Source of the DNA: Escherichia coli
GTDB taxonomy: Bacteria; Pseudomonadota; Gammaproteobacteria; Enterobacterales; Enterobacteriaceae
Assembly (NCBI RefSeq): GCF_965641715.1
Contig: NZ_OZ282453.1
Length of the DNA: 64,000 bases
Reading direction: 5' to 3' (one strand)
Positions 56,401 through 59,400 of the stretch are shown here, piece by piece (within the stretch, counting starts at the first letter, position 1; each line of letters opens with the position of its first letter). A program made the position numbers.

Positions 56401-59400
56401 AGCGGGATGGTCAAAACGGCGCTGACGCTGGCAGTAACGACCACCTTAAAGGAATTAACGCCGTGAAAATTGAATTAACGGTGAATGGGCTGAACGTGCA
56501 AGCGCAGTACCATGATGAAGAGATAAAACGCGTGCATAAACCGTTGCTGCGCATGTTGGCGGCCTTACAGACGGTAAATCCGCAGCGGCGAACCGTGGTT
56601 TTTCTTTGCGCTCCGCCGGGAACGGGAAAATCGACCCTGACTACCTTCTGGGAATATCTCGCGCAACAAGACCCCGAACTGCCCGCTATCCAGACGCTGC
56701 CGATGGATGGTTTTCACCATTACAATAGCTGGCTGGATGCGCATCAGCTACGCCCGTACAAAGGCGCGCCGCAGACATTTGATGTGGCAAAACTGGCAGA
56801 AAATTTGCGCCAGGCAGTGCAGGGCGACTGTACGTGGCCGCAGTACGATCGACAAAAACATGATCCGGTAGAAGATGCGTTGCACGTTACCGCACCAATA
56901 ATCATCGTCGAAGGAAACTGGCTATTGCTGGATGACGATAACTGGCGCCAGCTAGCGCAATTTTGTGATTTCTCGATCTTTATCAATGCGCCAGCTACTG
57001 CGTTGCGGGAACGACTGGTGGGGCGCAAGCTGGCGGGAGGGTTATCGCTGGCAGACGCAGAAGCTTTTTATGACCGTACCGACGGGCCGAATGTTCGCCG
57101 GGTGCTGGAAGAGAGTCTGCCTGCAAATTTGACCTTAATGATGACCGCTACGGGTGAATATCGTCTGGTGGATTAATGTTCCTGATTAGACCATCTTCCA
57201 GTCGCACCACACGAGAGAAATGACGCCGGGTAAATGCGGCGTCATGACTGATTGCTACGACGCTCGTGCCTCGCTGGCGGCACTTCTCCAACCAGCTTTC
57301 AAACACGCTCAACCAATTTTCGTCAAAATCCCGACTCGGCTCGTCCAGCAGCAATAGTGGCGGAGAGAGTGCTTCCAGGCAGGCGACGGCGACCATCCGT
57401 CGCTGCGCACTATGCAGATCCAACGGGTGCGCGCTGGCAGTGTCTGCTAACTGACAACATTGCAGGGCAGCATGGGTACGTTGAGTGATTTCATCCGCCG
57501 GGCATTTTTGCAGTTTCAAACCAAATGCGATCTCGTCAGCGACGGTGCTGTGAAAAAGTTGGTTTTCCGCTTCCTGAAACAGTACGCCAATCTTTGCCGC
57601 GCGCTGGCGGTTTTTCAGGTTTTTCATCGCCTGTTGTTGCAGCATAACCGTACCGGCTGTGGGCGTAAGAAGACCTGCCATTACTCGTAACAGCGTCGAT
57701 TTCCCTGCGCCATTGTCGCCGGTCAACGCCAACCATTCACCTTGTTTGAGTTGCAGAGAAATGTCGCAAAGACAATCCGTTGCCGCGCCAGGCCAGCGAT
57801 AAGATATCTGATTTAACGTTAACATAGTGGCTGGAGCGCTCCGTTTTGCAATTGCCACGCTTGCTGGCAGTAGTTCAGGAAAGGTGTGCGATGACGTTCA
57901 AAAAGAATAATCAGCGAACCACGTTCAAACGCCCAGTGTTGTAAGCGCTGCAACAGCATTTCGCTGGCCTGCGGCGTCAGGCGGCTAAAGGCTTCATCAA
58001 GAATTAATAGCTTTGGCTGCATCGCGATGGCGCAGGCGATGACCACGCGCTGTGTCTCTCCACCGGAGAGTGTTGCTGGGTGACGATGGCGCAACGGCTG
58101 GCACTCGGTCAGAGTCAGGGCGGCATCAATCCGCGCCATAATCTCTGCTTCAGCAAGACACAGATTTTCTGGCCCAAAGGCAACTTCTTCTTCCACGCTA
58201 AAGGTACAGCCGGAGAGCTGCAAATAGGGCGATTGCTGGACGAGCTGGATGGTGGCGGATTGTTCATTAAGCGGGAGATGCCCAATGGGCGTACCGAGGA
58301 GCGTCCCCGTGCCTGTTATCTCTCCTGGCAGAAAGTCCGGATACCAGCCCGCCATCAGCTGTGCCAGCGTACTTTTGCCACTGCCGTTGTCACCAAAGAT
58401 GGCGACCATCCCCGGTTTGACATAGTGAAAGTTATAACAGAACGGAGGATGCGTTGAGTGTGTCGGGCAATAACGGAGCTGTTCTAACGTAACCATATCC
58501 ACGCTCCGAATTCTGTCAGCATCAGCAAGATCATGGTGTAACGCGCTACGCGTTGTAGGGTGCTATCGGCTGGTGCCCACAACGTTGTTCGTCGGTTGTG
58601 GATCCGAAATGCCCGCATATCCAGCGCCGCACCGCGGACAGCAAGATCGTTTAGCGCATTGTGTGTTAGCGGAATAATTAACGCGGGCATCGCACGTAAA
58701 CGCTGATACCAGCCCTCATCCAGCGGCACGCCGCGGGCACGCTGCGCTTCATGAATAATCGCTAATTGCCGTTTTAACTGCTCAACGACCAATAACGGCC
58801 CGGCAAACAGATAAGCGACGCCTGGCGGCAGGCGAGAAGCAAACAGAGCGCGGATAAAACATTGCACGGGGACGTACTGCATCCACAACTGTGAGGTTGA
58901 AACAATCGCCAGAATCCGCAACCAGAGCGTAATAGCATGCGTCCAACGCTCCGGCGAACGCGGCGTGCCGCTTAGCCATTCTGTTAGCCAGCCACCGTGT
59001 ACCAGCCACAGCCCGGCTCCCAGCGAGAACATCAGCCAGGCGACATATTTTGCCCGCCGCCGCGTGGCCTTTAGCGCAATAAGGCAAAAAAAGGTCGCCG
59101 CGCTATAGATCGGCAAAATGGTCTGCGCGGGCAGGATAAGCGTGGTGCAGGCCGCCAATGCCCATAGTGTTAATGAGGTAAATGGATGCATTTAGCGCAC
59201 GGCAGCCATTGCCGGAAAATGGCGCGTGGTGCGAATCGGCAGCTGGCGCAGTAAAAGCCAGACAATCACCGCTGTAAGAGTTTTATCGACCAGGTTCGCG
59301 CCTATCACCGTAATCGCCACCGACTCCACCAGGTTTTGCCCCATCGAGTGCATCCAGGCAACGAACAAATCGGCTCCGCTACCGGTGACACCGCCGAACA

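What the first reader, a model, noticed from the sequence alone, without database searches (positions are those of the whole stretch)
57148..57825. Second ATPase has a degenerate ABC signature, implying an asymmetric A/A' dimer
The upstream ATPase carries canonical Walker A, LSGGE signature and Walker B motifs. The downstream one keeps Walker A (GDNGAGKST) and Walker B (LLLLDEP) but has LHSAQ where LSGGQ is expected. That predicts one catalytic and one degenerate nucleotide site, as in heterodimeric EcfA/EcfA' pairs. Both proteins are short (~225 aa) and appear to lack the usual C-terminal dimerisation extension.
Basis: seen in the sequence. Interest (0 to 1): 0.35.

Follow-up and report, generated by a model that had tools for sequence, protein, structure and literature searches.

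The report
ECF transporter motor with one degenerate ATP site
The two small ATPase genes are the paired motor of a five-gene vitamin/metal-type (ECF) importer found in about 60% of E. coli strains, and their sequence deviations all fall on one of the two shared ATP pockets, so probably only one pocket burns ATP, a layout well known in ABC exporters that I did not find described for ECF importers.

Summary
Window 57148-57825 (-) encodes a 225-aa ABC ATPase (A2) with intact Walker A, Q-loop, Walker B and H-loop. It has LHSAQ exactly where LSGGQ belongs.

The upstream 225-aa ATPase (A1, 57819-58496) keeps LSGGE.

All deviations therefore fall on one composite site (A1 P-loop side plus A2 signature). 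The other site (A2 P-loop side plus A1 signature) is fully canonical.

This pattern holds in about 60 genomes from several orders and phyla:
- A2 signature canonical in 0 of 58; its other motifs canonical in 58 of 58.
- A1 signature canonical in 61 of 61; H-loop His kept in 4 of 61.
- Natural A1-A2 and T-A1-A2 fusions exist, and dN/dS is about 0.1.

The genes belong to a fixed cassette, PCC protein-S-T-A1-A2. In the Enterobacteriaceae sampled it lies between epd and yggC. It is complete in 3317 of 5426 complete E. coli genomes and absent from K-12.

The C-terminal extension is missing in both ATPases in Enterobacteriaceae but present in Proteus-type orthologs.

Catalytic asymmetry is inferred, not measured, and the substrate is unknown.

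The parts
59793..60224 (-). First gene of the cassette: 143-aa PCC/PPC (DUF296) protein with an invariant three-histidine cluster (H85, H87, H101)
   Evidence: Pfam PF03479 at 98.7 bits. The Salmonella ortholog is solved as PDB 2HX0/2NMU. The three His align to the HxH...GGH of 2H6L, a trimer that binds Zn through three conserved histidines (PMC1933227). They are invariant in 64 cassette orthologs. The PCC gene comes first in all but a few truncated loci.
59192..59770 (-). ECF S component (192 aa), substrate unknown
   Evidence: Pfam ECF_trnsprt PF12822 at 32.6 bits (cut-off 30.7). NCBIfam CD3073-family S component at 134 bits, below its cut-off of 180. PGAP names it 'ECF transporter S component'. 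dN/dS is 0.03-0.06.
58484..59191 (-). ECF T component (235 aa) with two Arg-containing coupling motifs: ARG aa 152-154 (58730-58738) and VRG aa 185-187 (58631-58639)
   Evidence: Weak Pfam CbiQ hit (22.2 bits, cut-off 25). PGAP names it 'energy-coupling factor transporter transmembrane component T'. Both arginines are conserved in 55 orthologs. Its 3' end overlaps the A1 start by 13 nt.
57819..58496 (-). A1, 225-aa ECF-type ABC ATPase that supplies the intact signature to the consensus site and the P-loop side of the degenerate site
   Evidence: Pfam ABC_tran at 77.5 bits. Its best NCBIfam models are ECF ATPases. AlphaFold pLDDT is 93.3, and the top fold matches are CbiO and EcfA.
58368..58394 (-). 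A1 Walker A GDNGSGKST (aa 35-43)
   Evidence: GK[ST] is kept in 61 of 61 orthologs.
58056..58070 (-). A1 canonical signature LSGGE (aa 143-147)
   Evidence: LSGG[EQ] is present in 61 of 61 orthologs.
57990..58010 (-). A1 Walker B LLILDEA (aa 163-169), followed by the deviant D-loop SRLT
57891..57899 (-). A1 H-loop position reads E200-R201-H202, so the switch histidine is replaced by Arg
   Evidence: hhalign of the A1-family and A2-family profiles gives E200=S193, R201=H194 and H202=D195. At the His position the orthologs have R 44, Q 6, K 6, C 1 and H 4. H202 is not conserved. The strand ends at residue 200 in the model.
57819..57825 (-). ATGTTAA overlap of the A1 stop and the A2 start
   Evidence: Read directly from the sequence. 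It suggests translational coupling.
57148..57825 (-). A2, 225-aa ECF-type ABC ATPase (the finding) with an intact catalytic P-loop side and a degenerate signature
   Evidence: Pfam ABC_tran at 96.7 bits. Its best NCBIfam models are ECF ATPases. AlphaFold pLDDT is 93.8, and the top fold match is CbiO 5x3x.
57694..57720 (-). A2 Walker A GDNGAGKST (aa 36-44)
57403..57417 (-). A2 degenerate signature LHSAQ (aa 137-141)
   Evidence: Aligned onto LSGGQ of ABCB1/ABCB4. Canonical in 0 of 58 orthologs.
57337..57357 (-). A2 Walker B LLLLDEP (aa 157-163)
   Evidence: DEP is present in 58 of 58 orthologs.
57241..57249 (-). A2 H-loop SHD (aa 193-195)
   Evidence: [ST]HD is present in 58 of 58 orthologs.

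Best explanation
A1 and A2 are the two nucleotide-binding subunits of a dedicated, operon-encoded ECF-type ABC importer (PCC protein-S-T-A1-A2). They work as an obligate head-to-tail heterodimer with two unequal ATP sites.

Site 2 is built from A2's Walker A, Q-loop, Walker B and H-loop plus A1's LSGGE. It is fully canonical and is the hydrolytic site.

Site 1 is built from A1's P-loop side plus A2's LHSAQ. It carries every deviation: signature Ser->His and Gly-Gly->Ser-Ala, and H-loop His->Arg. It keeps the ATP-binding residues: Walker A Lys, Walker B Asp and Q-loop Gln.

I infer that site 1 binds ATP but hydrolyses it slowly or not at all. It would then act as a nucleotide-dependent latch or hinge for the dimer, and the transporter would spend about one ATP per cycle.

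What is shown: motif content, column equivalence, conservation and polarity across taxa, fusions, purifying selection, ECF context and loss of the C-terminal helices.

What is inferred: heterodimer geometry (from the universal ABC architecture), catalytic inactivity of site 1, and its latch role.
For: - Motifs and their alignment to solved ABC proteins.
- Profile-profile alignment puts A1 R201 at the H-loop His position.
- In 58 A2 orthologs the signature is never canonical, while Walker A, Q-loop, DEP and [ST]HD are always canonical. In 61 A1 orthologs LSGG[EQ] is always present, and the H-loop His survives in only 4.
- The cassette keeps the same order in Enterobacterales, Aeromonas, Neisseriales, Desulfobulbales, Synergistaceae, Anaerolineales and Herpetosiphon.
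- A1-A2 is fused into one 503-aa protein in L002, and T-A1-A2 into one ORF in Synergistaceae. In the window the two genes overlap by ATGTTAA.
- dN/dS is 0.09-0.16 for both ATPases.
- Only the heterodimer yields a canonical site.
- The same polarity holds in 97 of 141 fused ECF-type double ATPases; only 2 show the opposite.
- Degenerate sites in ABC heterodimers are an established mechanism, and bound nucleotide at the degenerate site of TM287/288 keeps the NBDs in contact: PMC3971661.
Against: - There is no biochemical measurement.
- A1 keeps the catalytic Walker-B Glu in 58 of 61 orthologs and keeps its Q-loop, so site 1 may retain slow hydrolysis.
- Arg at the H-loop position could still contact the gamma-phosphate.
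- Most of the family has LHAGQ, which keeps the second Gly and the Gln. From memory, TAP2's LAAGQ lowers activity but does not abolish it.
- In canonical ECF modules both sites are required (PMC10368641), so a one-site ECF motor has no precedent.
Confidence: 0.75

Rival explanations
1. Both ATP sites are catalytically competent. LHSAQ and the Arg at A1's H-loop would be tolerated family-specific variants, and the motor would hydrolyse two ATP like canonical EcfAA'.
For: A1 keeps Walker A Lys, Walker B Asp-Glu and Q-loop Gln. Most family members keep the second Gly and the Gln of the signature as LHAGQ. Canonical ECF modules need both sites (PMC10368641).
Against: The signature Ser and first Gly are never present in 58 orthologs, and the H-loop His is lost in 57 of 61. 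Both changes hit the same composite site, while the other site is invariant. Two Aeromonas A1 proteins even carry DQA, having lost the catalytic Glu. Convergence of this kind is the hallmark of degenerate sites (PMC3971661).
Confidence: 0.13
2. The module is not primarily an importer. It would be an ECF-like sensing or regulatory device in which the degenerate ATPase pair and the 'DNA-binding' PCC protein transduce a signal.
For: The PCC protein is annotated as DNA-binding and is always co-encoded. S-component folds also occur in receptors (title and abstract of PMC11109136). [quoted passage not shown]
Against: S, T (with both Arg coupling motifs) and the two ATPases form a complete ECF transporter set. 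The PCC protein has no recognisable DNA-binding motif in these scans and instead has a conserved His3 cluster of the kind that binds metal. One fully canonical ATP site is strictly conserved.
Confidence: 0.07
3. A2 is a decaying, functionless duplicate of A1, or the whole cassette is a relic. The odd signature would be drift.
For: The cassette is absent from K-12 and from about 39% of complete E. coli genomes. Isolated decay is seen in E. albertii (A1 truncated) and Trabulsiella.
Against: dN/dS is about 0.1 for all five genes. All other A2 catalytic motifs are invariant in 58 of 58 orthologs across phyla. The AlphaFold models are confident. The Salmonella operon is reported as transcribed and anaerobically activated (PMC11481890).
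Confidence: 0.02
4. A1 and A2 act as separate homodimers, for example as alternative motors.
For: Group I ECF systems such as CbiMNQO use ATPase homodimers (PDB 5x3x and 5x40).
Against: An A2 homodimer would have two degenerate signatures, and an A1 homodimer would have two sites without the H-loop His. A1 and A2 always co-occur 1:1, overlap translationally, and are fused in that order in several lineages.
Confidence: 0.03

Closest known systems
Canonical group II EcfA/EcfA'-EcfT modules (L. delbrueckii, L. brevis and T. maritima; PDB 5d3m, 8bms, 4huq, 4hlu)
   Same: Both have two different ABC ATPases, a T component with two Arg coupling helices, and an S component. ECF ATPase models give the best sequence matches, and these structures are among the top fold matches.
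   Different: [quoted passage not shown] Here one site is degenerate.
- Canonical subunits have two C-terminal helices that form a four-helix bundle (PMC4245157). These are absent here.
- Scores are far below the equivalog cut-offs (120-149 bits against 315-330).
- This module is operon-dedicated and carries an extra PCC gene.
Asymmetric ABC heterodimers with a degenerate nucleotide-binding site (TM287/288; also TAP1/2, LmrCD, BmrCD and CFTR, from memory)
   Same: All non-consensus substitutions (the signature of one NBD, the H-loop of the other) converge on one composite site, while the other site is intact. The predicted result is single-site hydrolysis, with the degenerate site holding nucleotide (PMC3971661).
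   Different: Those are type IV exporters with fused or paired TMD-NBD half-transporters. This is an ECF (type III) importer with soluble NBDs. The H-loop replacement is Arg/Lys/Gln, preceded by an invariant Glu. The Walker B Glu is mostly retained, whereas TM287 has Glu->Asp.
Fused ECF-type double ATPases (460-600 aa, two ABC domains in one chain)
   Same: They are the nearest sequence relatives beyond the cassette, and ECF ATPase models score them best. Of 141 representatives, 97 show the same polarity: the signature of the C-terminal domain and/or the P-loop side of the N-terminal domain is degenerate.
   Different: They are single polypeptides, usually keep the C-terminal extensions, and were not examined for PCC linkage. 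The window has split genes.
CbiMNQO/NikMNQO metal ECF transporters
   Same: Both are operon-encoded dedicated ECF systems. CbiO is the best fold match. The orthologs are historically annotated as 'cobalt' transporters, and the Salmonella operon has been suggested to import Co2+ (PMC11481890 citing a thesis).
   Different: CbiO is a homodimer with two consensus sites. The S component here is PF12822-type with no CbiM hit. There is no CbiN. The PCC protein is extra.

Membership tests
ABC ATPase (Pfam ABC_tran PF00005) | Score above the Pfam gathering threshold | tested here: met
   A2 scores 96.7 bits and A1 77.5 bits against a cut-off of 25.
ABC ATPase (Pfam ABC_tran PF00005) | Walker A, Q-loop and Walker B in both proteins | tested here: met
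ABC ATPase (Pfam ABC_tran PF00005) | LSGGQ signature (C-loop) | tested here: not met
   A1 has LSGGE, so the feature is met there. A2 has LHSAQ at the aligned position, so it is not met there. The signature is canonical in 0 of 58 A2 orthologs.
ABC ATPase (Pfam ABC_tran PF00005) | H-loop (switch) histidine | tested here: not met
   A2 has SHD, so the feature is met there. A1 has Arg201 at the His position, so it is not met there.
ECF (type III ABC) transporter | Membrane S component of the ECF_trnsprt type encoded with the module | tested here: met
   PF12822 scores 32.6 bits against a cut-off of 30.7. The NCBIfam CD3073-family S component scores 134 bits, below its cut-off of 180.
ECF (type III ABC) transporter | T component with two Arg-containing coupling-helix motifs | tested here: met
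   ARG 152-154 and VRG 185-187 are conserved in 55 orthologs. The Pfam CbiQ hit is only 22.2 bits, below its cut-off of 25.
ECF (type III ABC) transporter | Two ABC ATPase domains per module | tested here: met
   A1 and A2 are adjacent and overlapping, and are fused in some lineages.
ECF (type III ABC) transporter | ATP-dependent uptake of a micronutrient | not testable with these tools
   The substrate is unknown, and no riboswitch was found. A Co2+ suggestion exists only through a thesis cited in PMC11481890.
Canonical EcfA / EcfA' (NCBIfam TIGR04520 / TIGR04521 equivalogs) | Score at or above the equivalog cut-off | tested here: not met
   A2 scores 149 and 145 bits and A1 scores 121 and 107 bits, against cut-offs of 330 and 315.
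Canonical EcfA / EcfA' (NCBIfam TIGR04520 / TIGR04521 equivalogs) | All catalytic motifs present in both subunits | tested here: not met
   compared with PMC4820897.
Canonical EcfA / EcfA' (NCBIfam TIGR04520 / TIGR04521 equivalogs) | C-terminal helices forming a four-helix bundle on dimerisation | tested here: not met
   Matches stop at about model position 231 of 279. The models end at the last core strands. Target-normalised TM is about 0.65-0.76. Proteus, Morganella and Budvicia orthologs keep tails of 45-60 aa. The feature itself is described in PMC4245157.
ABC heterodimers with a degenerate nucleotide-binding site | Non-consensus substitutions converge on one composite site and the other site is consensus | tested here: met
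ABC heterodimers with a degenerate nucleotide-binding site | Obligate heterodimer of two different NBDs | tested here: met
   This is indirect evidence: 1:1 co-occurrence, gene overlap, and A1-A2 and T-A1-A2 fusions. No physical interaction was measured.
ABC heterodimers with a degenerate nucleotide-binding site | Degenerate site binds ATP but does not hydrolyse it, or barely does | not testable with these tools
   This needs ATPase assays on site-specific mutants.
CbiMNQO/NikMNQO metal ECF transporters | CbiM/NikM-type S component and homodimeric CbiO | tested here: not met
   The S component hits only PF12822 in Pfam. There are two different ATPases.

The most novel reading that the evidence does not exclude
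This would be the first recognised ECF transporter family built around a constitutively degenerate ATP site. The motor would spend one ATP per cycle, and the ATP-occupied degenerate site would act as the dimer hinge. In Enterobacteriaceae that hinge would have made the canonical C-terminal four-helix bundle dispensable, since it is lost in both subunits. The His3-bearing PCC trimer would be an obligatory fifth, cytoplasmic partner, for example an acceptor or chaperone for a metal or metal-chelate substrate. Because related fused ECF ATPases show the same polarity, single-site ECF motors could be common rather than exceptional.
Probability: 0.3. Interest if true: 0.6.

Novelty: new variant of a known kind. 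Interest (0 to 1): 0.4.

Why it matters
ECF transporter mechanisms have been worked out on modules with two consensus sites, where knocking out either one kills transport (PMC10368641). A natural, widely conserved ECF motor with a built-in degenerate site would give a direct test of how many ATP an ECF cycle needs. It would also test what the second site does: hinge, timer or S-component release.

The family is experimentally convenient. It occurs in most E. coli and Salmonella lineages but is absent from K-12, so K-12 is a clean host. Long-tailed and short-tailed natural variants exist, as do natural A1-A2 and T-A1-A2 fusions.

The work also flags an uncharacterised five-gene importer with an unknown substrate, reported to be anaerobically induced in Salmonella. 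Its PCC partner already has a crystal structure but no known function.

Tried and rejected
- My first reading, based on spacing from Walker B, put A1 Glu200 at the H-loop His position. The profile-profile alignment and the strand register in the models corrected this to Arg201. His202 looked like a shifted H-loop in single-sequence HMMER alignments, but it is not conserved in orthologs.
- I looked for a riboswitch or other known RNA in 57000-60700 and found none.
- Promoter and terminator scans were at chance level.
- No FNR-box-like site (TTGAT-N4-ATCAA, up to 2 mismatches) lies in the PCC-epd spacer, despite the reported anaerobic induction.
- I looked for conserved neighbour genes that might reveal the substrate. 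Nothing is conserved beyond the five core genes outside the Enterobacteriaceae epd/yggC synteny.
- Literature searches for ECF combined with degenerate site, CD3073, or DUF296/PPC combined with ECF found no description of this asymmetry. The open-access library is incomplete, and the one relevant thesis could not be read.
- I tried to display EcfA and EcfA' alignments directly from the PDB search, but two-domain ABCB proteins always outranked them. For motif completeness of canonical EcfAA' I rely on PMC4820897.
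Full report
**What is at the coordinates**

Window 57148-57825 (minus strand) is a 678-nt CDS of 225 aa, here called A2. The longest ORF starts at GTG 57858. The ATG at 57825 is the start that PGAP uses in a 99.2% identical E. coli chromosome, and all orthologs begin there.

A2 is the last gene of a five-gene minus-strand operon:
- PCC/PPC (DUF296) protein, 59793-60224
- ECF S component, 59192-59770
- ECF T component, 58484-59191
- ATPase A1, 57819-58496
- ATPase A2, 57148-57825

T and A1 overlap by 13 nt. A1 and A2 overlap by ATGTTAA. Pfam and NCBIfam assign PCC, ECF_trnsprt, weak CbiQ and ABC_tran twice. ECF ATPase models are the best but sub-threshold matches for both ATPases. 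T carries the two Arg coupling motifs (ARG 152-154, VRG 185-187), conserved in 55 orthologs.

**The observation**

A2 has these motifs:
- Walker A GDNGAGKST (aa 36-44)
- Q-loop VLFQE (aa 81-85)
- Walker B LLLLDEP (aa 157-163)
- H-loop SHD (aa 193-195)
- LHSAQ (aa 137-141)

HMMER places LHSAQ exactly on the LSGGQ of solved ABC proteins. This holds for the single sequence and for a 27-sequence profile. The refuting scenario, an intact signature elsewhere in the protein, does not apply.

A1 is not fully canonical. Its H-loop region reads LIILF-E200-R201-H202. A profile-profile alignment of the A1 and A2 families (probability 100%) gives E200=Ser193, R201=His194 and H202=Asp195. The strand starts in the AlphaFold models (A1 residue 195, A2 residue 188) fit that register.

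Single-sequence alignments sometimes slid H202 onto the histidine. H202 is variable in orthologs (N, R, K, D and others). A1's D-loop is SRLT rather than SALD.

In the universal head-to-tail ABC dimer, each ATP sits between the P-loop side of one NBD and the signature of the other. A1's H-loop defect and A2's signature defect therefore belong to the same site. The other site, made of A2's P-loop side and A1's LSGGE, is intact.

**Comparative test**

A scan of one genome per species with an S-component alignment returned 62 loci. All but a few truncated loci carry PCC-S-T-A1-A2 in the same order. The taxa are:
- Enterobacterales: Escherichia, Citrobacter, Salmonella, Atlantibacter, Kluyvera, Buttiauxella, Proteus, Morganella, Providencia, Budvicia and Limnobaculum
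- Aeromonas
- Neisseriales
- Desulfobulbales
- Synergistaceae
- Anaerolineales
- Herpetosiphon

The motif tabulation is as follows.

| Feature | A2 (n=58) | A1 (n=61) |
|---|---|---|
| Walker A | canonical in 58 | GK[ST] in 61 |
| Q-loop | canonical in 58 | Gln kept in all or nearly all (Q88 invariant in the 25-sequence alignment) |
| Walker B | DEP in 58 | DEx in 58, DQA in 2 Aeromonas, 1 gap |
| H-loop | [ST]HD in 58 | His kept in 4; R 44, Q 6, K 6, C 1 |
| Signature | canonical in 0 | LSGG[EQ] in 61 |

The A2 signatures seen are LH[ATVSI][AG]Q, LN/D-A-A/G-E/Q, LGYSE and LSLSD.

Among close homolog clusters (at least 68% identity), 115 of 120 A2 show LH[TSA]AQ.

A1 and A2 are fused in a metagenomic homolog (503 aa, 42% identity, same cassette). 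T-A1-A2 form one ORF in four Synergistaceae genomes.

dN/dS against Escherichia, Salmonella and Citrobacter orthologs is 0.09-0.16 for A1 and A2 and 0.03-0.14 for the other three genes. The asymmetry is therefore ancient, polar and maintained by selection.

**Wider pattern**

In an exhaustive search of 1.84 billion cluster representatives, the nearest relatives beyond the cassette are fused ECF-type double ATPases. Of 141 such representatives, 97 have the same polarity. In those, site 1 (N-domain P-loop side plus C-domain signature) is non-canonical and site 2 is canonical. Another 29 have both sites canonical, and only 2 show the opposite polarity. This sample is biased towards relatives of A2.

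**C-terminal extension**

Canonical ECF ATPases end in two helices that form a four-helix bundle in the dimer (PMC4245157). Several lines of evidence show these helices are missing here:
- Both ATPases match ECF ATPase models only to about position 231 of 279.
- The models (pLDDT 93.8 and 93.3) stop at the last core strands.
- The top structural matches are CbiO and EcfA, with target-normalised TM of about 0.65-0.76. Minimal NBDs such as FtsE and LolD give 0.85-0.91.

Orthologs in Proteus, Morganella, Providencia, Budvicia, Limnobaculum and the distant phyla keep tails of 45-88 aa. These tails extend the match to the ECF models. The truncation of both subunits is therefore a derived trait of Enterobacteriaceae, while the degenerate site is older.

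**Comparison with what is known**

[quoted passage not shown] Each single Walker-B E->Q mutant abolishes ATPase and transport (PMC10368641).

The mechanistic analogues are ABC heterodimers with a consensus site and a degenerate site, such as TM287/288 (PMC3971661). From memory these also include TAP1/2, whose TAP2 signature LAAGQ resembles this family's LHAGQ. I found no paper describing a degenerate site in an ECF transporter, but the searchable library is incomplete.

The operon itself is not unknown. PGAP annotates all five genes. [quoted passage not shown] It cites a thesis on STM3071 (PMC11481890).

**Substrate and PCC protein (side evidence)**

The Salmonella PCC ortholog is solved as PDB 2HX0/2NMU. 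Three histidines (H85, H87, H101) are invariant in 64 cassette PCC proteins. They align with the HxH...GGH of archaeal 2H6L, which binds zinc through three conserved histidines (PMC1933227). This fits a metal-related role. However, the S component is not CbiM/NikM-like, no riboswitch is present, and no informative neighbours are conserved. The substrate remains open.

**Distribution**

The complete cassette is present in 3317 of 5426 complete E. coli genomes. It is absent from K-12, where a 284-bp spacer separates yggC from epd. In the Enterobacteriaceae sampled it lies in the epd-yggC region; elsewhere it sits in other contexts.

**Verdict**

This is an uncharacterised variant of the ECF transporter theme, with a structurally asymmetric and probably single-site ATPase motor. 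Sequence-level claims are near certain. The catalytic asymmetry and the hinge role of the degenerate site are inferences that await mutant ATPase assays.

Noticed in passing
window 56463-57176 (+) versus 57148-57825 (-): yggC and A2 converge and overlap by 29 nt. The window's YggC is only 81% identical to K-12 YggC, with the divergence concentrated in the C-terminal third. This is far below normal E. coli core-gene identity, so presence or absence of the cassette appears linked to a divergent yggC allele.
   Followed up: partly
window 57177-60595; K-12 locus L067 2278-2561: K-12 has a 284-bp yggC-epd spacer instead of the 3.3-kb cassette. Only the epd-proximal part (window about 60375 onward) is shared, at 96%. 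The full cassette is in 3317 of 5426 complete E. coli genomes.
   Followed up: partly
window 59793-60224 (-): The PCC/DUF296 protein is the first gene of the cassette in all but a few truncated loci. Its Salmonella ortholog is already crystallised (2HX0/2NMU, 'putative DNA-binding protein'). H85, H87 and H101 are invariant and match the Zn-binding histidines of homolog 2H6L. This suggests a metal-binding cytoplasmic partner rather than a DNA binder (PMC1933227).
   Followed up: partly
L002 2681-4192; L047, L052, L053 and L056 (Synergistaceae); L061 4428-5579: Natural fusions occur: A1-A2 (503 aa), T-A1-A2 (ORFs of 690-910 aa), and in Citrobacter sp. R56 a single ORF spanning PCC and S. The last may be a real fusion or a sequencing error.
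   Followed up: partly
L005 6269-6739 (E. albertii NBRC 107761); L014 (Trabulsiella odontotermitis): There is apparent decay of the cassette in single genomes. The A1 ORF stops at 156 aa in E. albertii. In Trabulsiella, T is shortened to 187 aa and A2 is split. Assembly errors were not excluded.
   Followed up: no
L044 and L045 (Aeromonas sobria, A. finlandensis), A1: These A1 proteins have Walker B DQA, so the catalytic Glu is lost, together with LEQ at the H-loop. That is a more advanced degeneration of the same site.
   Followed up: no
proteins P0246-P0390 (fused ECF-type double ATPases): Most fused ECF-type double ATPases related to A2 (97 of 141 cluster representatives) also have a non-canonical site formed by the N-domain P-loop side and the C-domain signature. 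Single-site ECF motors may therefore be widespread.
   Followed up: partly
window 60225-60595: The 371-bp divergent spacer between the PCC gene and epd has no Rfam hit, no promoter above chance and no FNR-like box, although the Salmonella operon is reported to be anaerobically activated (PMC11481890).
   Followed up: partly
window 51822-56466 and 60596-64000: The flanks are ordinary E. coli core genes: cmtB, cmtA, yggP, the glpX paralog (yggF) and fumE (yggD) upstream, and epd, pgk and fbaA downstream.
   Followed up: no
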